From the sequence record PQ850628.1: a stretch of 64,000 bases of DNA. One strand, given 5' to 3'. The notes beneath the pieces were generated by a model. The model made no database searches. It saw only the letters and a list, made by a program, of their open reading frames with translations, and had not been told where the DNA came from. Of the stretch, positions 30,005-51,520 are shown piece by piece. A program made the translations under genes and the position numbers. This DNA is from Escherichia phage StefiGeyer_Bas88. The stretch's first letter is position 1; each line of letters opens with the position of its first letter.

Positions 30005-30235
30005 TTAGATAACCTTGTGCTTATAGATGTTAGGGTTGTAGTAATGCAACCAGTTTATGTATTGTTTCTGTTCGAGGTAGTGCCTGCAATCATGACAAAA
30101 AGCATGACCCAAACCTGTTTCCTCATTCAGTTTGAAATTGATAAGAAGCTTCTGCTTTCGACAGAAGCTACATGCTTTAGTGGGCTTCACGTAATGCATC
30201 CCAAGAGATTGGATATATTTTACGAAGCTCTTCAT
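30005..30235 (-). CDS. small zinc-ribbon protein (start uncertain)
   Basis: CSFCRK ... CHDCRH Cys pairs; overlaps the 3' end of the ThyX-like gene. Confidence 0.3.
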   Translation of the reverse strand: MKSFVKYIQSLGMHYVKPTKACSFCRKQKLLINFKLNEETGLGHAFCHDCRHYLEQKQYINWLHYYNPNIYKHKVI

Positions 30236-30827
30236 CAATTGTTGATGCGAACACTCGTACTTCGTACTGAGCATGGTCTGACAGTCGCTGACGACACAAC
30301 TCTGACCAACCATATAGAGAACCAGTCCATACCCACTCAGTGATCATACCCTGAGGTAATACGAATCGAGCTTGTTCTGGAGCAATGAACTTAATCAATT
30401 CATCGTACGACTCAAGAGCTGTTTCATATGCTCGGTTAATCAGAACTAGTGCAGAGTTTTGTGCTCCTGTGGTGAGGAGATTCCCTGCACCTGCATGGAG
30501 GTCCGAAGGTCTTTCAAAAATCTCTTTAGGGATGAAGAGTTCAACTGCTCCATCTTTATACCGCCGGGACATTTCGTTCCACGAGAATCCAACTTGATGC
30601 TTGCCCAACTGTCTCGCAATTGCGATTGGCGCTTTGCATCGGAAGCTAATTGTCGGATGACGGAATGGTGTGACATGCTTTTCTCTGGCAAGGAACTTGA
30701 TAAGGCGTTCATCTCGTTCATTTAACTCTCCTTCACGAGTAACCCCAAAGGAAACTCGAGCTGCATTAACAACAGATTTATCAGAACCCATTGCTTCGAT
30801 TAGTGTTGCTTGTAATTGTTCATTCAT
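30177..30827 (-). CDS. thyX: flavin-dependent thymidylate synthase (ThyX)-like, non-canonical RHR motif
   Basis: AARVSF...HVTPF.H...F.CKAPIAIARQ ... SRRY ... SDHAQYE align to ThyX; the RHRx7S motif reads KHQVGFSWNEMS here. Confidence 0.65.
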   Translation of the reverse strand: MNEQLQATLIEAMGSDKSVVNAARVSFGVTREGELNERDERLIKFLAREKHVTPFRHPTISFRCKAPIAIARQLGKHQVGFSWNEMSRRYKDGAVELFIPKEIFERPSDLHAGAGNLLTTGAQNSALVLINRAYETALESYDELIKFIAPEQARFVLPQGMITEWVWTGSLYGWSELCRQRLSDHAQYEVRVFASTIDEELRKIYPISWDALREAH

Positions 30828-30841
30828 CCTTGAACTCTTCC

Positions 30842-31057
30842 TTAATAATGAATCTTTTTATAAATCATGTTGCTTCCACTTTCTGTTTCAATCCCTTTCT
30901 GAATTGTAATCTTAGAAGCGCCAGTGTTAGCAATTTTTAAAGCTCGCTTAAAGCGGCGAGCCTCTCTCCGTGTTGTATATGAGGAGAAACTAGGGATTGT
31001 GCTATCAAAATTAAACCACTTAACTGCCCAAAAAGTAATCCAAGGTTTCTTTTCCAT
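30842..31057 (-). CDS. small basic protein, W..W/TRxEAR/K(V/I)HY family (copy 3)
   Basis: WAVKW ... TRREARRFK ... KIHY, shared with 32922..33128 and 33128..33340. Confidence 0.4.
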   Translation of the reverse strand: MEKKPWITFWAVKWFNFDSTIPSFSSYTTRREARRFKRALKIANTGASKITIQKGIETESGSNMIYKKIHY

Positions 31058-31058
31058 A

Positions 31059-31334
31059 TTAAATACCTTTCAGAGCCGTGTCTAAAAATGCACGGAGATT
31101 AGATTCAGTTTGCATACCTGATAAGCTGTAATGAGCACCACTGTTCTTATCAGGGATGACAAAGGCTGGGATACTGCGAACACCATATTCAATGGCTCGC
31201 TCTCGACCATCACCTTCAGAGATATTTACTTCTTCAACTTCTACACTGTAGTCAGCCACAACCTTCTTAAACACAGGAGCCATAGCTGCACACGGAGCAC
31301 ATGAATTACTATAAAACTTAATTACTTTACTCAT
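31059..31334 (-). CDS. thioredoxin-like protein
   Basis: MSKVIKFYSNSCAPCAAMAPVF with CxxC active site and the cis-Pro region VRSIPAF; ATG at 31334. Confidence 0.6.
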   Translation of the reverse strand: MSKVIKFYSNSCAPCAAMAPVFKKVVADYSVEVEEVNISEGDGRERAIEYGVRSIPAFVIPDKNSGAHYSLSGMQTESNLRAFLDTALKGI

Positions 31335-31524
31335 TCTATTCCTTGTTAATAAACAGGTTGATATGACGCTGGGTAGCAGGAACAACAATAAAAGATTTAT
31401 ACTGACCTTTTGCTAAGTCATGAGCAATCTTCTTTGTCTGACCAAGACCCATCACACAGCCACTAACGATAATGGCATGTGCTTGTAATTCTTCAGGTAG
31501 GTTTAGTTTCACTCTTTAGATTCC

Positions 31525-31710
31525 TTATAGCATACAAAGAATAATAACAAGAGGTAGTGTTATAGCAAAATGTACCAGAACAACACTACCTAGCTTGATA
31601 GCTTTAACATCCTCTTCTGCTGGGTTTTCTTTAATTGCTAAATTTCGAGCTTTATATATAACAGTACCAACTATTAACGACCACACGGCCCACACAATCA
31701 GTGAAATCAT
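31525..31710 (-). CDS. small two-helix membrane protein (paralog 2)
   Basis: Two hydrophobic segments; similar to the adjacent gene (IVWAVWSLIVGTVIY vs IVWSVWAILVGGIVY). Confidence 0.4.
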   Translation of the reverse strand: MISLIVWAVWSLIVGTVIYKARNLAIKENPAEEDVKAIKLGSVVLVHFAITLPLVIILCML

Positions 31711-31719
31711 ATCAAACCC

Positions 31720-31941
31720 TTATGCAGTCAACAGGTGGAGAAGGAAAGGAATGACAACAGAGAAAATTACCAGAGCAATGCTGCCATGTTTAATGGGTTT
31801 AGCATCATTCGGATTTTCTTTAAGCATCTGTTTCTGAGCCAGATAAACGATACCACCAACAAGAATTGCCCACACAGACCATACGATTGCTGAAAACATA
31901 TTCACATCCTTATAAAGAAGTTCGCCCCACCTCTTAAACAA
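31720..31941 (-). CDS. small two-helix membrane protein (paralog 1)
   Basis: Tandem paralog of 31525..31710. Confidence 0.4.
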   Translation of the reverse strand: MFKRWGELLYKDVNMFSAIVWSVWAILVGGIVYLAQKQMLKENPNDAKPIKHGSIALVIFSVVIPFLLHLLTA

Positions 31942-31962
31942 AGAGACAGGGCGGAGGTTTGA

Positions 31963-32529
31963 TTAGTAAGACACGTCACCACTAGAGTGGGACATGTTGC
32001 TCTTGACGAAGTAACAGAACTTGCCAAGACCTTCATTAATTTCTTGAAGCATACTCTGGTCTACTGGATAGGTGCACAAGTCTGAATCAAACTCGTCCAT
32101 CTTTTCAATGATACACATCAGAGTCATGCACATGTCGGAAAGCATACCGTCCATGTCGAGATCAGCACTACCTTCTCTGAACCAAGCACAACTAAGATAG
32201 CTACTAGCTGTTGCATCCACTTTGATACAGTGATAACGCATTCGCTCAGCTACTCGGTCTCCTGTTTCACGAGCATAGTCTTCTAATTCATCGAACATAC
32301 CATGAACACCTTGGAAACCAGCTCCAGAGACGTTCCAGTGGTAATTCTTTGCTTTGATGTGTAGAAGCTCAAGGTTAGCCTGCACACCGCATAGGATGTG
32401 CTCTAGACTGTTACCGCTGATCAGTTTATTCATTCCCTCAAGACGAGAGATAGAGGAGTCAGTTGTAGAGAATGGGTTACTAGAACCCACTCGTGTTAGT
32501 TCAGGTAAGTCGAAGACATTATTATGCAT
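31963..32529 (-). CDS. Dps-like ferritin-fold protein
   Basis: LELLHIKAKNYHWNVSGAGFQGVHGMFDELEDYARETGDRVAERM aligns to the Dps ferroxidase region, with the His, His, Asp and Glu ligand positions present. Confidence 0.55.
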   Translation of the reverse strand: MHNNVFDLPELTRVGSSNPFSTTDSSISRLEGMNKLISGNSLEHILCGVQANLELLHIKAKNYHWNVSGAGFQGVHGMFDELEDYARETGDRVAERMRYHCIKVDATASSYLSCAWFREGSADLDMDGMLSDMCMTLMCIIEKMDEFDSDLCTYPVDQSMLQEINEGLGKFCYFVKSNMSHSSGDVSY

Positions 32530-32869
32530 TAGGAGTCTCTCCTTCTAAGTTAGTTGAATTAGCCACATTACGAGCAATGTTATCCATGACCTGCTGTGTA
32601 ATAACAATGCAATTCTGAGGGTCTACTGATTTAGAACGCCCCATTTCAGGGTCATAGACTTTGACTCGCTTGGCTGTTGAGCCAGTAACTTGCAACACTT
32701 TGAGAAGATAACCTTGATTTCCAATAGACCATGCAACAACATCACGATTCTTGATATAACGACCAAGCATATCACGATGATAGAACTGCTGCATAACTTT
32801 AGCTTTGCTAATCTCTTCAGATGGCGGGGCCACTTTACTCAAATCTAACATAACTCTCTCCTGTTTCAT
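32522..32869 (-). CDS. hypothetical protein
   Basis: 115-aa ORF; promoter-like motif immediately upstream. Confidence 0.35.
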   Translation of the reverse strand: MKQERVMLDLSKVAPPSEEISKAKVMQQFYHRDMLGRYIKNRDVVAWSIGNQGYLLKVLQVTGSTAKRVKVYDPEMGRSKSVDPQNCIVITQQVMDNIARNVANSTNLEGETPNA

Positions 32870-32886
32870 ACAATATTCTTATACTG

Positions 32887-32896
32887 TATATACATT
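32887..32896 (-). promoter_or_regulatory. phage promoter-like motif AATGTATATA
   Basis: Intergenic, - strand, 17 nt upstream of the 32869 ATG. Confidence 0.25.
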
Positions 32897-32921
32897 TGAG
32901 AGTTATCATATCTACTACCAA

Positions 32922-33128
32922 CTAGTAATGAACCTTGCTAGTCAAGGATCCTGCACTGTTATTGTCACTTTGAAACCAACGATGAATCTCTACTTTTTCA
33001 GCGAGACCTAAAGCTTTTGTAGCTTTCTTAGCAAGACGAGCTTCTTGTCGAGTGTCGAATAATTTAAGACAATCACCACCAAGGTCTTTGTTAGCCCATT
33101 TAACGCGAACTGCCCATAATTTAGTCAT
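32922..33128 (-). CDS. small basic protein, W..W/TRxEAR/KVHY family (copy 2)
   Basis: WAVRVKW ... TRQEARLAKK ... KVHY. Confidence 0.4.
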   Translation of the reverse strand: MTKLWAVRVKWANKDLGGDCLKLFDTRQEARLAKKATKALGLAEKVEIHRWFQSDNNSAGSLTSKVHY

Positions 33129-33340
33129 TAGTAATGTACCTTTCCACTGATATAGAAACGACCTGATTTAAAGTCTTGAGCTTTGTGAATAGTGACCTTA
33201 TCAATTGTACTTTCACAGCTTAATAAGAATTTCTTATGAGCGCGAGCCTCTTGACGAGTATTCCTGATGCCCATTGATTCCGTACCACTACTCCAGCGGA
33301 TACGAACGACCCAACGTCTTTTCATTGTTCCAAACTCCAT
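33128..33340 (-). CDS. small basic protein, W..W/TRxEAR/KVHY family (copy 1)
   Basis: WVVRIRW ... TRQEARAHKK ... KVHY. Confidence 0.4.
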   Translation of the reverse strand: MEFGTMKRRWVVRIRWSSGTESMGIRNTRQEARAHKKFLLSCESTIDKVTIHKAQDFKSGRFYISGKVHY

Positions 33341-33540
33341 TATCTGTCAACCGATTCAGGGACAAACTGCATTACACATACCTGATTACGAGGGAGATTT
33401 ATTTCACAAGCAGCTTTTCTATCAGCAACCTTTGCTGATGAGTTAGGGCCTATTTGAGCCATCATTATTCCCATAGCAAACATGCCGATGATTATGCCAA
33501 TTGATAGAGATGCTACGGTTTCTTGTTTCATCTTAATCAC
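33340..33540 (-). CDS. small membrane protein
   Basis: Hydrophobic helix SLSIGIIIGMFAMGIMMA. Confidence 0.3.
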   Translation of the reverse strand: MIKMKQETVASLSIGIIIGMFAMGIMMAQIGPNSSAKVADRKAACEINLPRNQVCVMQFVPESVDR

Positions 33541-34070
33541 ACCCCTTTAGATGCAACTACACTATTGCTACCATTGTAGCGACCCTTCACTGCATATGAA
33601 TCGTCGCCAGCGTGAGAGTGTTCAAACATAACCATCTGACCAACACGCATTCCAGCACGAACTCGTAAGCTGTGATTGTGGGTAACATTATGGAACTCAA
33701 AGGTCAGCTTACTGTTGTTAAACCCTGCATCAGCCCAACCAGCATGGAGATGGTTTAAACCACAACGAGCCATTGAGGAGCGGAGTACAAACAGACTTGA
33801 AATATTATCTGGAAGGTTAAACTCTTCCATTGAGTGAGCTAAGAAGAACTGTCCCGGAGTGATAACGATACCATCTTCAGGGATTTTTACTTCTTTCCAC
33901 TTGAGGTTTTCTTTAGCATCAATGTCAACAATACCATCAGCCTGCTCTTCAACAAGGATAGTATCACCAATACGGATATCCACACTAGCAGCGTTAACAT
34001 ACTTATGCTCCGCATCTAAAAAGCCATTATCAATAACGCTGTGTAATTCTTGAGAACCTAAAAGACTCAT
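33537..34070 (-). CDS. dcd: dCTP deaminase (dUTPase fold)
   Basis: FVLRSSMARCGLNHLHAGWADAGFNNSKLTFEF matches the dCTP deaminase/dUTPase family core. Confidence 0.7.
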   Translation of the reverse strand: MSLLGSQELHSVIDNGFLDAEHKYVNAASVDIRIGDTILVEEQADGIVDIDAKENLKWKEVKIPEDGIVITPGQFFLAHSMEEFNLPDNISSLFVLRSSMARCGLNHLHAGWADAGFNNSKLTFEFHNVTHNHSLRVRAGMRVGQMVMFEHSHAGDDSYAVKGRYNGSNSVVASKGV

Positions 34071-35503
34071 GAGTTTCTGTTTCCTTGTACAGATGATGCC
34101 AAATTGTTAATCATATTACGAGCTGTTTCACGAGTTAGTGTAACACCTGCTAAGTTGTTATGAAGTTCACCAGAGAGTTCACGAGCAGTAGCCCGAAGCT
34201 CTTCACCAAGTGAAGTGTTAGAGTGAGCCAAACCATTACGACGACCAACAGGTCGAGGAGTTTCGTTAGCGTCATTAGCTAAAGATGCAAAACCAATACG
34301 AGCAGCTTCACGAGCGGCTATAGCTGCTACCCGATCTTCCGTAGGGGTTGGCAAATCACCAACCCCTACACGTTCAATATCACTAGCACGTAGACCCTGA
34401 GTAACAGATCTTACTGTTTCCCATGAACGACGAGAGCGCTGCAAATCATCCATTGATGGAGAAGAAACAGGACGAGCAGTTCCTCCTGAGACATGCCATG
34501 TATGGTTATGCATTCCAGAAGATCGTGCACTACCAAAACTACCGGTGAAAGTATCACGAGGTGCCATTGTACTAGGGGCTGCGAATCTTGCCTGTTGCCA
34601 AGAGTCACGTCTGTCAGTTCCCGGAGTCCAAGGCTGCGTAATTGCTTCAACACCAATAGTGGTTAACTCACTAGACCAATCTGTCTGTAGGTTAACTTCT
34701 TCATCCAGATAGATACGACCCGCTTCCTGAGGAATATTTAATACAGTTTCCATCATCTTCAAGGTGTAGTGGCGACGTTGATTCTGATACAAGTTTACAC
34801 CAGCCATAGGCCCAACTAAATCACTGATCAGATGAACTTCTGGTTCACCAAAAGCTCCCATTGCAAGGTGCATATACTCAGTAGAACTGCTGTAAACTGC
34901 AACTGTTGCTTCAGGCCACTTTTTGTGGACATACTTCATGTCACGACTTGTCACCACAGGGATATCATTAGTATATGCCATTGCAAACATACCTTCGTTC
35001 GACACATACATATCATCGAGAGTCATAAACCCTTGACAGATCATAGGGAAGCGACCGCTCAGAGTATCCATATCCAGAGGAAGGTTAATCATCATCTGAA
35101 TCTTCACTTCATCAATCTCAATTTCCAGAATCTCTTGGAAAGTGAAAAGTGCGTCAGCATAAGTTGTCCCACTAACAGGCTGGACTAAACGAGATGTAAC
35201 TTGAAGTCCCTTACTCTCTGTCCAAGACAAGAAGTTGTCAAGGAACAGTGCAGCATTACCCACGTTAGCAGGGCTGTTTTCCTGACGAGTGTTCCAACGA
35301 AACCCTCCTTGAACTAGGAAGATATCAACATCATTCGGAGTTCGGTTCTGGAAGAACGTATCACGGATAGCACCACCTGCAATAACAGGATAAATACCAT
35401 CAGGGACTACGTTATCTCTGATCAAATTACGAATCAGGTCAAGCCCTACGCTGAGGGCTTCTCCTTCTTGAAGGTTCAATTCAGACAATGGAATCTTAAT
35501 CAT
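34067..35503 (-). CDS. nucleotidyltransferase with CCA-adding/poly(A) polymerase-type head domain and divergent C-terminal region
   Basis: VIAGGAIRDTFFQNRTPNDVDIFL matches the GGxxRD...DxD head-domain signature of class-II tRNA nucleotidyltransferases; C-terminal ~200 aa is low complexity. Confidence 0.45.
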   Translation of the reverse strand: MIKIPLSELNLQEGEALSVGLDLIRNLIRDNVVPDGIYPVIAGGAIRDTFFQNRTPNDVDIFLVQGGFRWNTRQENSPANVGNAALFLDNFLSWTESKGLQVTSRLVQPVSGTTYADALFTFQEILEIEIDEVKIQMMINLPLDMDTLSGRFPMICQGFMTLDDMYVSNEGMFAMAYTNDIPVVTSRDMKYVHKKWPEATVAVYSSSTEYMHLAMGAFGEPEVHLISDLVGPMAGVNLYQNQRRHYTLKMMETVLNIPQEAGRIYLDEEVNLQTDWSSELTTIGVEAITQPWTPGTDRRDSWQQARFAAPSTMAPRDTFTGSFGSARSSGMHNHTWHVSGGTARPVSSPSMDDLQRSRRSWETVRSVTQGLRASDIERVGVGDLPTPTEDRVAAIAAREAARIGFASLANDANETPRPVGRRNGLAHSNTSLGEELRATARELSGELHNNLAGVTLTRETARNMINNLASSVQGNRNS

Positions 35504-51443: not shown

Positions 51444-51520
51444 TGGTGCACCCTACAGGATTCGAACCTGTAACCAACGACTTAGAAGGTCGCTGCTCTG
51501 TCCAATTGAGCTAAGGGTGC
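51444..51520 (-). tRNA. tRNA-Arg(UCU): tRNA-Arg, anticodon UCU, CCA encoded
   Basis: Folded by hand: acceptor GCACCCU/AGGGUGC, D-stem GCUC/GAGC, anticodon stem GCGAC/GUCGU with loop CUUCUAA, T-arm ACAGG-UUCGAAU-CCUGU, 3' ACCA. Confidence 0.85.

What the first reader, a model, noticed from the sequence alone, without database searches (positions are those of the whole stretch)
30842..33340. Three-member family of basic small proteins with W..W, TRxEAR and K(V/I)HY motifs
ORFs at 33128, 32922 (tandem) and 30842 share WxVxxxW near the N-terminus, TR(Q/R)EAR in the middle and a C-terminal K(V/I)HY, with net basic charge suggesting nucleic-acid binding. Their function is unknown.
Basis: seen in the sequence. 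Interest (0 to 1): 0.4.

Follow-up and report, generated by a model that had tools for sequence, protein, structure and literature searches.

The report
Small basic phage protein family, unknown function
The three small basic proteins are real, diverged copies of one gene family found only in phiEco32-like coliphages; the family is already catalogued as "function unknown", and its behaviour (multi-copy, fast-changing, always basic) suggests nucleic-acid binding or host interference, which nobody has tested.

Summary
Three minus-strand genes (30842-31057; 32922-33128; 33128-33325, or 33340 if the upstream ATG is used) encode 65-71-aa proteins. They are about 33% identical (pairwise E 1e-9 to 3e-8; shuffle z 13-14). 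A leave-one-out HMM recovers each at E about 1e-9, with the next-best ORF at E >= 0.4.

The window is a phiEco32-like podophage (Gordonclarkvirinae). All three proteins match PHROG 4939 ("unknown function"), whose phiEco32 members are phi32_69, 70 and 71.

The family is narrow: 17 clusters among 1.84 billion representatives, all stand-alone proteins of 65-78 aa. Genomes carry 2-5 copies, mostly as TAATG-coupled arrays between dCTP deaminase and the gp36 promoter of gene 68. All members are basic (pI 9.1-10.7). W5, T-R-x-x-A-R-x-x-K and the C-terminal Tyr are (nearly) invariant.

The genes are truly coding (dN/dS 0.03-0.43). Between lineages they diverge far more than their neighbours (46-47% versus 80-93% identity to phiEco32).

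Best guess, at low confidence: small nucleic-acid-binding accessory proteins. The main rival is a host-takeover or anti-defence cassette. Interest is modest.

The parts
33128..33325 (-). Family member, subfamily B (65 aa, pI 10.7; orthologue group of phiEco32 phi32_70).
   Evidence: ORF. phrog_4939 E 4e-25. 95-97% identical to hypothetical proteins of IME267, Bas86, Bas87 and ECBP2. GGAG 9 nt before the 33325 ATG. dN/dS 0.03 versus Bas87. Falls in clade B of the NJ tree.
32922..33128 (-). Family member, subfamily C (68 aa, pI 9.8; orthologue group of phi32_69). It is the last gene of the tandem array.
   Evidence: ORF. phrog_4939 E 4e-19. 97% identical to Bas86, but only 68-73% to ECBP2 and Bas87 and 47% to phiEco32. 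dN/dS 0.43 versus Bas87. AlphaFold pLDDT 87.6, beta-beta-alpha-beta-beta.
30842..31057 (-). Family member, subfamily D (71 aa, pI 10.3). A solitary copy between the thioredoxin and thyX genes, present only in some kuraviruses (Bas87, 4E8).
   Evidence: ORF. phrog_4939 E 5e-22. 96% identical to Bas87 and 92% to 4E8; absent from phiEco32, DE5, SR02 and Bas89. dN/dS 0.07.
33126..33130 (-). TAATG stop/start overlap joining members B and C (translational coupling).
   Evidence: Read from the sequence. The same 1-nt overlap joins every tandem pair in phiEco32, DE5, Bas89 and metagenomic arrays of up to five copies.
32889..32896 (-). AATGTATA, matching the phage sigma (gp36) promoter element tAATGTAtA. 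It lies in the 70-nt gap between the array and the 109-aa gene (orthologue of phi32_68) and marks the downstream boundary of the array's transcription unit.
   Evidence: Motif position. The consensus, and an experimentally mapped gp36 promoter in front of phiEco32 gene 68, are reported in PMC8948821. The motif count in the window (5) is not itself above chance; the argument rests on position and orthology.

Best explanation
The three genes are diverged paralogues (subfamilies B, C and D) of a family specific to phiEco32-like phages: stand-alone, strongly basic proteins of about 65-80 aa (PHROG 4939; phiEco32 gp69-71).

Shown:
- They are real protein-coding genes under purifying selection.
- They sit in the leftward replication and nucleotide-metabolism gene block.
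- The tandem copies have overlapping stop and start codons (TAATG), so they are probably translated together.
- The predicted fold is one small domain: a four-stranded antiparallel sheet with a single helix packed on one face.

Inferred: they bind a polyanion, most likely DNA or RNA. The invariant Thr-Arg-x-x-Ala-Arg-x-x-Lys at the start of the helix would place Arg, Arg and Lys on one helical face. The alternating pattern of strands 1 and 3 would put further Arg, Lys and His side chains on the open face of the sheet.

The subfamilies kept side by side would then either differ in target preference or assemble into mixed oligomers. Their role would be as accessory factors during phage DNA replication or gene expression.
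For: - Family membership and statistics.
- Coding and selection: dN/dS 0.03 (B), 0.07 (D) and 0.43 (C), with dS similar to neighbouring genes.
- All 25 diverse members are basic: pI 9.1-10.7, net charge +3 to +12.
- Invariant W5, T23, R24, R28, K31; nearly invariant A27 and the C-terminal Y.
- Two independent AlphaFold models give beta-beta-alpha-beta-beta, with the TRxEAR motif at the helix N-terminus (pLDDT 80.3 and 87.6).
- Several distinct subfamilies all keep the same charged motif while the rest of the protein diverges. That fits a shared generic ligand better than a set of different protein targets.
- Genomic setting among dCTP deaminase, Dps-like DNA-binding protein, thioredoxin, ThyX, primase/helicase and polymerase genes.
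- TAATG coupling in every array examined.
Against: - No match to any known nucleic-acid-binding family by sequence: Pfam, NCBIfam, PDB.
- No binding data exist.
- The side-chain orientations are inferred from sequence periodicity, not from coordinates.
- Between lineages the genes diverge much faster than their neighbours and are swapped as cassettes. Copy number varies from 2 to 5. Both patterns are more typical of host-interaction or counter-defence genes than of core replication factors.
- The proteins were not among the 34 detected in the SU10 lysate proteome, although the neighbouring gp65, gp67 and gp68 were. This is weak evidence, because very small basic proteins yield few tryptic peptides.
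Confidence: 0.35

Rival explanations
1. Host-takeover or counter-defence cassette. Each paralogue binds and blocks a host protein, for example a component of an immune system or of host nucleic-acid metabolism. The array diversifies by duplication, loss and recombination in an arms race with hosts.
For: - Strong between-lineage divergence against conserved flanks: versus phiEco32, dcd is 92%, p109 93% and thyX 84% identical, but family member B is 46% and C 47%. Versus 4E8, dcd is 96% and thyX 99%, but B is 42% and C 49%.
- DNA homology with 4E8 breaks exactly at the dcd stop codon and resumes near the B/C junction.
- dN/dS of member C is 0.43, against 0.03-0.14 for neighbours.
- Copy number ranges from 2 to 5.
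- The position just downstream of dcd is occupied in different phages by an A-type member, a small membrane protein or an HNH endonuclease.
- Gordonclarkvirinae are reported to be highly resistant to tested RM and defence systems, with no known mechanism (PMC11990801).
- The neighbouring nucleotidyltransferase is itself hypervariable. One orthologue carries a precomputed weak Pfam hit to the anti-Gabija family Gad2.
Against: - An invariant basic motif shared by all subfamilies is unusual for inhibitors aimed at different targets.
- Close orthologues are under strong purifying selection: B 0.03, D 0.07.
- The genes lie deep inside the replication block, not at the genome end that carries the early promoters (PMC8948821).
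- The Gad2 hint was not reproduced with the local Pfam copy.
- No hit to any defence-related model. PADLOC holds defence models, not anti-defence ones.
Confidence: 0.27
2. Small regulatory or structural subunits of the neighbouring nucleotide-metabolism or replication enzymes (dCTP deaminase, nucleotidyltransferase, ThyX, thioredoxin, primase/helicase), for example allosteric modulators or assembly factors of a dNTP-synthesising complex.
For: The array always lies immediately downstream of dcd. The solitary copy lies between thioredoxin and thyX. This synteny holds in every kuravirus-like locus examined.
Against: - The partner enzymes are conserved (dcd 92-99%) while the small proteins are not, which is the opposite of what co-evolving subunits show.
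- Phage 7-11 keeps dcd, thyX and thioredoxin but has only one very distant copy, located elsewhere in the genome.
- Copy number is variable.
Confidence: 0.1
3. Sponges for small anionic ligands. Oligomers of the proteins would sequester nucleotides, such as immune signalling nucleotides, using the invariant Arg/Arg/Lys plus aromatic residues (W5, C-terminal Tyr). This would be analogous in principle to Acb2, Tad1 and Tad2.
For: - The invariant positions comprise basic and aromatic residues.
- Possible distant relationship to DUF2188. In bacteria DUF2188 is found next to nucleotide cyclases, and one was described as a putative Thoeris effector.
- The same hypervariability and defence-resistance context as the previous rival.
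Against: - The DUF2188 link is statistically inconclusive: HHalign probability 1-7%.
- DUF2188 itself has no demonstrated ligand.
- The idea is entirely inferential.
Confidence: 0.06
4. The ORFs are not genes, or the resemblance is a chance or compositional artefact.
For: None beyond their small size.
Against: - Leave-one-out HMM E about 1e-9, against E >= 0.4 for the best other ORF.
- Conserved in 98 phage records.
- dN/dS well below 1 with substantial dS.
- Confident fold prediction.
- Consistent TAATG coupling and a Shine-Dalgarno sequence.
Confidence: 0.01

Closest known systems
PHROG 4939 (unknown function); phiEco32 phi32_69, phi32_70, phi32_71 and their orthologues annotated as hypothetical proteins in about 100 Kuravirus, Suseptimavirus and Nieuwekanaalvirus genomes
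   Same: Full-length hits of all three window proteins (E 4e-19 to 4e-25). The A-type and E-type copies of relatives also hit it, as does the distant 7-11 ORF. Same genomic position as phi32_69-71.
   Different: Nothing essential; this is the family. The window lacks the A-type copy (phi32_71 position), where it has a small membrane protein instead. It carries an extra solitary D-type copy that phiEco32 lacks.
DUF2188 (Pfam PF09954), a small bacterial and prophage domain of unknown function seen in defence-island and toxin-antitoxin-like contexts
   Same: - Similar size.
- End-to-end collinear profile-profile alignment: N-terminal W-containing hairpin; fdT(K/R)xEA at the helix start; a (V/L)xIH strand; and a conserved Tyr that aligns with the family's C-terminal Tyr.
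- The score beats 200 of 200 column-shuffled controls.
   Different: - No family member reaches even E = 10 against the Pfam model.
- HHalign probability is only 1-7% (P 0.003-0.018).
- The invariant R-x-x-x-R-x-x-K of the phage family is not conserved in DUF2188.
- The DUF2188 signature tail GNDPxPPKG is absent, because the phage proteins end at the Tyr.
- DUF2188 proteins are not arranged in tandem arrays in the examples fetched.
T4-type internal proteins (IPI, IPII, IPIII) and their hypervariable locus. This is an analogy from general knowledge, not a family assignment.
   Same: Small basic proteins, several per genome, in a locus that is much more variable than its flanks. IPI* counteracts a host restriction system.
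   Different: - No sequence or fold similarity.
- No conserved N-terminal capsid-targeting peptide.
- The genes lie in the early/middle replication block, not in a head-gene context.
- Not detected in SU10 virion or lysate proteomics.
Best structural neighbours in the PDB: PsaD core, CapRel, the class III cyclase / reverse-transcriptase palm half-domain, PII-like SbtB and ERH; T4 Dmd further down the list
   Same: A two-layer alpha/beta sandwich of four antiparallel strands and one helix can be superposed over 50-65 residues.

Membership tests
PHROG 4939 | Significant full-length match to the family HMM | tested here: met
   E 5e-22, 4e-19 and 4e-25, covering profile positions 1-67 of 67.
PHROG 4939 / phi32_69-71 orthologue group | Syntenic position between dCTP deaminase and the gene-68 orthologue with its gp36 promoter | tested here: met
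   Members B and C lie between dcd (33537-34070) and p109 (32522-32851), with AATGTATA at 32889-32896. Member D lies elsewhere (between trx and thyX), as in Bas87 and 4E8.
DUF2188 (PF09954) | Score above the Pfam gathering threshold | tested here: not met
   No hit at E <= 10 for any of 25 members. Positive controls score E 1e-29 to 1e-32.
DUF2188 (PF09954) | Profile-profile homology | tested here: inconclusive
   HHalign gives a collinear alignment with P 0.003-0.018 and probability 1-7%. The score is above 200/200 column shuffles. The rotation control was uninformative.
DUF2188 (PF09954) | Conserved C-terminal GNDPxPPKG motif | tested here: not met
   The phage proteins terminate at the Tyr that aligns just before this motif.
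Known nucleic-acid-binding folds (HU/IHF, Alba, Sac7d/SH3-like, RHH, wHTH, RRM, dsRBD, CsrA) | Sequence or structural match to a family representative | tested here: not met
Nucleic-acid-binding proteins (functional class) | Demonstrated binding to DNA or RNA | not testable with these tools
   Only net charge and the positions of conserved basic residues are available.
Virion internal / ejection proteins (T4 IP-like) | Presence in purified virions | tested here: not met
   Not among the 34 proteins detected in SU10 preparations, which did include neighbouring non-structural gp65, gp67 and gp68 (PMC4281155). This is indirect evidence from a relative.
Known anti-phage defence components (PADLOC) | HMM match | tested here: not met
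   A single member hits Cmr7 at E 0.009; no consistent family emerges. No anti-defence HMM library was available.

The most novel reading that the evidence does not exclude
The array may be a diversifying counter-immunity cassette that contributes to the so far unexplained resistance of Gordonclarkvirinae to restriction-modification and other defence systems. It could work by coating phage nucleic acid or by sequestering an anionic immune signal. In that reading, the family is a highly diverged phage branch of DUF2188, a domain that in bacteria sits in conflict systems.
Probability: 0.12. Interest if true: 0.7.

Novelty: new member of a known kind. Interest (0 to 1): 0.33.

Why it matters
On its own this is an ordinary finding. 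The proteins are 92-97% identical to hypothetical proteins already deposited, and they belong to a catalogued family of unknown function.

It gains some value from context:
- The family is one of the few multi-copy, rapidly exchanging gene sets in a phage group that is abundant and therapeutically popular.
- That group was recently reported to resist nearly all tested defence systems, with no known mechanism (PMC11990801).
- The array sits beside the dCTP deaminase / nucleotidyltransferase locus that the same authors flagged.
- BASEL kuraviruses that plate on engineered E. coli K-12 now make deletion and complementation tests practical.

A demonstrated function would annotate about 300 genes across about 100 genomes. 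If the DUF2188 link holds, it might also shed light on that widespread orphan domain.

Tried and rejected
- **Sequence libraries.** Pfam (single proteins, and all 25 members at E <= 10), NCBIfam, PADLOC and the PDB sequence profile search gave no meaningful hits.
- **Structure searches.**
  - Foldseek against BFVD found only the same family in kuraviruses, plus uncharacterised proteins of Salmonella phage SE131 and Cronobacter phages GAP52 and CsaP_009.
  - The afdb50 library was unavailable.
- **Exhaustive HMMER search** of 1.84 billion representatives returned 18 hits. One (P0025, 1068 aa, 10 stretches) is a low-complexity tandem-repeat artefact and was discarded.
- **The search for related loci** with the broad alignment failed because no stretch was conserved enough.
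- **DUF2188 idea** was tested with real DUF2188 sequences: suggestive but not significant. The circular-rotation null turned out uninformative because rotations keep the collinear core.
- **Gad2 hint** for the neighbouring nucleotidyltransferase (precomputed, weak) was not reproduced. There was only a weak PolyA_pol head-domain hit in orthologues, none for the window protein, and no PDB sequence hit.
- **Literature.** Searches for phiEco32, Kuravirus, phi32 and DUF2188 found no functional study of gp69-71. The svsR sRNA paper on kuravirus NC-B concerns adsorption and is not relevant. Burroughs & Aravind 2020 could not be retrieved.
- **DNA repeats.** A search between the copies found nothing beyond a 19-nt partial match.
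Full report
**1. What is there**

The region carries three minus-strand ORFs at 30842-31057 (71 aa), 32922-33128 (68 aa) and 33128-33340 (70 aa).

They align over their full length with 14 invariant columns:
- the N-terminal Met;
- two Trp in the first strand;
- T-R-x-E-A-R-x-x-K;
- a K-x-x-I strand;
- the C-terminal K-x-H-Y.

Evidence that the similarity is real:
- Pairwise BLASTP gives 32-33% identity with E 1e-9, 3e-8 and 2e-8.
- Local alignment scores are 13-14 standard deviations above sequence shuffles.
- An HMM built from any two members finds the third at E 5e-10 to 3e-9 among all 766 six-frame ORFs of the window. The best unrelated ORF scores E >= 0.4.

Three corrections apply:
- The 33128 gene probably starts at the second ATG (33325, 65 aa). 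That ATG has a GGAG 9 nt upstream. Close relatives are annotated or called from the matching Met. Distant orthologues start MKK/MKR directly at the previous stop codon.
- The 30842 copy has WAVKW rather than WxVxxxW.
- Broader family HMMs find no fourth copy in the window.

There is no DNA-level repeat between the copies, so the duplications are ancient.

**2. Where the window comes from, and the neighbourhood**

The window is a phiEco32-like prolate podophage of the Gordonclarkvirinae. It is about 93% identical over 6 kb to phages TH34, ECBP2 and IME267, and all 98 matching records are Escherichia or Shigella phages.

All three genes lie in the leftward replication and nucleotide-metabolism block. 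The gene order on the minus strand is:
1. primase/helicase
2. polymerase exonuclease subunit
3. nucleotidyltransferase (34067-35503)
4. dCTP deaminase (33537-34070)
5. a 66-aa membrane protein (33340-33540)
6. member B
7. member C
8. a 70-nt gap
9. a 109-aa protein (32522-32851)
10. a Dps/ferritin-like protein (31963-32529)
11. two small membrane proteins
12. a 58-aa ORF
13. thioredoxin
14. member D
15. ThyX (30177-30827)

Members B and C overlap by one base (TAATG).

The gap after member C contains AATGTATA at 32889-32896. This matches the single-element promoter tAATGTAtA of the phage sigma factor gp36. One such promoter was mapped experimentally in front of phiEco32 gene 68, the orthologue of the 109-aa gene (PMC8948821). 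The tandem pair is therefore the last part of the transcription unit that ends at this middle promoter.

In the SU10 paper, CDS 68 and lower numbers are listed as middle gene products and CDS 74 and higher as early. The exact temporal class of the family genes is not stated in any paper I could read.

**3. The family**

All three proteins match PHROG 4939, "unknown function", end to end (E 4e-19 to 4e-25). In phiEco32 the family is phi32_71, phi32_70 and phi32_69: three TAATG-coupled genes directly after dCTP deaminase phi32_72.

An exhaustive HMMER search of 1.84 billion cluster representatives found only 18 proteins at E <= 1e-3. One is a repeat artefact. The other 17 are all stand-alone proteins of 65-78 aa.

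Every metagenomic member I traced sits in the same kuravirus-like synteny, in arrays of two to five copies.

Phage 7-11 shares 41 genes with phiEco32, according to PMC8948821. It has only one very distant copy, in a different place (E 5e-6 to the family HMM, 2e-4 to the PHROG). Foldseek against BFVD adds uncharacterised proteins of Salmonella phage SE131 and Cronobacter phages GAP52 and CsaP_009.

A neighbour-joining tree of 39 members from 11 loci resolves orthologous subfamilies:
- A, B and C lie in that order in the array, with an extra X type in some arrays.
- D lies between thioredoxin and thyX.
- The window carries B, C and D. The A position is occupied by the 66-aa membrane protein.

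**4. Properties**

- **Conserved positions.** Across 25 diverse members the invariant positions are W5, T23, R24, R28 and K31. A27 and the C-terminal Tyr are nearly invariant.
- **Charge.** Every member is basic: pI 9.1-10.7, net charge +3 to +12.
- **Predicted fold.** Two AlphaFold runs were made, one for member B with 10 sequences and one for member C with 26. They agree on beta1-beta2-alpha-beta3-beta4, with mean pLDDT 80.3 and 87.6. The TRxEAR motif forms the first turns of the only helix, so R24, R28 and K31 (i, i+4, i+7) should share one helical face.
- **Sheet surface.** In strands 1 and 3 the hydrophobic residues (W5, V7, I9, W11; V44, I46) alternate with R8, R10, K43, T45 and H47. The open face of the sheet is therefore probably basic too. 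This is inferred from sequence periodicity; I had no access to coordinates.

**5. Evolution**

*Close orthologues show purifying selection.* Against Bas87, dN/dS is 0.03 for B and 0.07 for D, like the neighbouring genes (0.03-0.14). For C it is 0.43, with a similar dS. The ORFs are therefore genuine genes.

*Between lineages the family is far more divergent than its flanks*:

| Comparison | dcd | p109 | dps | thyX | trx | B | C |
|---|---|---|---|---|---|---|---|
| versus phiEco32 | 92% | 93% | 82% | 84% | 80% | 46% | 47% |
| versus 4E8 | 96% | – | – | 99% | – | 42% | 49% |

*The slot is recombinationally active.*
- DNA homology with 4E8 stops exactly at the dcd stop codon and resumes near the B/C junction.
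- The slot just after dcd holds an A-type member, a membrane protein or an HNH endonuclease in different phages.

The locus thus combines conserved subfamily identity with cassette-like exchange and copy-number change.

**6. Comparison with known families**

No member hits Pfam even at E = 10. NCBIfam, PADLOC and a profile search of PDB sequences are empty or random.

From memory, the motif pattern recalled DUF2188 (PF09954), so I tested that:
- My recalled consensus sequences do hit PF09954 at E 1e-29 to 1e-32.
- I collected real DUF2188 proteins from phages and from the protein database.
- HHalign then produces an end-to-end collinear alignment: the Trp hairpin, T(K/R)xEA at the helix start, the xIH strand, and the terminal Tyr.
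- But P is only 0.003-0.018 and probability 1-7%.
- The score exceeds all 200 column-shuffled controls. That null ignores secondary-structure periodicity, and a rotation null was uninformative.
- The DUF2188 tail GNDPxPPKG is absent, and the phage family's R/R/K are not conserved in DUF2188.

I therefore do not file the family under DUF2188. I record it as the closest candidate relative, status inconclusive.

DUF2188 itself has no known function. Papers mention it in defence-island contexts: next to nucleotide cyclases under CapH/CapP control, and as a putative Thoeris effector. One mycobacterial prophage homologue is annotated "antitoxin".

**7. What it most likely does**

*Shown:*
- a real, selected, lineage-restricted family of small basic single-domain proteins;
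- tandem, translationally coupled arrangement;
- conserved subfamilies;
- rapid between-lineage turnover.

*Inferred:* the ligand.

I favour binding of a polyanion, most simply DNA or RNA (confidence about 0.35). Three observations point that way:
- Basic charge is the one global property kept by every member.
- The invariant residues form a basic helical stripe.
- All subfamilies keep that same stripe while the rest of the protein diverges. This fits a generic ligand with subfamily-specific preferences or partners.

Translational coupling of paralogues would also suit mixed oligomers, but I could not test this.

The main rival (about 0.27) is a host-takeover or counter-defence cassette. Its support:
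- hypervariability against conserved flanks;
- copy-number change;
- dN/dS of member C;
- the report that Gordonclarkvirinae resist nearly all tested RM and defence systems without a known mechanism. The dcd/nucleotidyltransferase locus next door was flagged there as a candidate (PMC11990801).

The two readings are not exclusive. A nucleic-acid-coating protein could itself be protective.

Lesser rivals:
- enzyme accessory subunits (0.1), disfavoured by the mismatch in evolutionary rates;
- nucleotide sponges (0.06), wholly speculative.

The family was not detected in the SU10 proteome, although neighbouring gene products were. This argues weakly against a virion-packaged role.

**8. Verdict**

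The functional suggestion is reasonable but unproven.

The proteins are new members (92-97% identical) of an already catalogued, uncharacterised family. Novelty lies only in the unanswered question of function. Interest is modest, at 0.33.

It would rise substantially if the array turned out to underlie the defence resistance of these phages, which I put at roughly one chance in eight.

Noticed in passing
window 31525-31710 and 31720-31899 (minus strand): A second tandem paralogue pair: two small (61 and 59 aa) predicted two-helix membrane proteins, 45% identical (E 3e-17). Both match phrog_9296 (unknown function). Versus phiEco32 they are only 33% and 53% identical, so this is another fast-evolving small-gene pair in the same operon.
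   Followed up: partly
window 33340-33540 (minus strand): A 66-aa predicted membrane protein (phrog_7508, unknown function) occupies the slot directly after dCTP deaminase. phiEco32, DE5 and Bas89 carry an A-type family member there (Bas89 with an HNH endonuclease inserted as well). It is only 59% identical to its Bas87 counterpart (dN/dS 0.34), and absent from the other five loci compared.
   Followed up: partly
window 34067-35503 (minus strand); L020 4085-5263: The nucleotidyltransferase next to dcd is hypervariable: 31-41% identity to phiEco32, DE5, SR02 and Bas89, against 58-93% for the adjacent dcd. One metagenomic orthologue carries a precomputed weak Pfam hit to Gad2, the phage anti-Gabija nucleotidyltransferase family. 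The local Pfam scan gave only a weak PolyA_pol head-domain hit for orthologues and nothing for the window protein, and there was no PDB sequence hit.
   Followed up: partly
window 32889-32896 (minus strand): AATGTATA lies 38 nt upstream of the Shine-Dalgarno-preceded ATG at 32851 of the 109-aa gene. It corresponds to the experimentally mapped gp36 (phage sigma) promoter in front of phiEco32 gene 68. The ATG at 32869, listed as the ORF start, is probably not used.
   Followed up: partly
window 31923-31953 (minus strand): A terminator-like hairpin (13 pairs, 7 G-C) followed by a T-rich tract lies immediately after the Dps/ferritin-like gene, inside the replication operon.
   Followed up: no
window 30005-30313 (minus strand): A Cys-rich ORF (CxxC ... 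CxxC, zinc-ribbon-like) overlaps the 3' end of thyX by 137 nt if read from its first ATG. Bas87 annotates a shorter 61-aa gene at this position, so the true start is probably an internal Met.
   Followed up: no
window 51444-51520 (minus strand): A tRNA-Arg (anticodon TCT) gene is the only tRNA found in the window.
   Followed up: no
L018 (Salmonella phage 7-11) 10949-11203, minus strand: The only family-like ORF in the 45 kb of phage 7-11 examined (record 30000-75000) is not annotated. It lies between gp054 and gp055 and overlaps the annotated gp055 in another frame. It lacks the C-terminal Tyr. Either an annotation gap or a decaying copy.
   Followed up: partly
L006 7765-8912; L019 3-905: Metagenomic kuravirus-like contigs carry arrays of five copies (78, 78, 70, 82 and 71 aa) and at least four copies, all joined by 1-nt stop/start overlaps. 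These are the largest expansions seen.
   Followed up: partly
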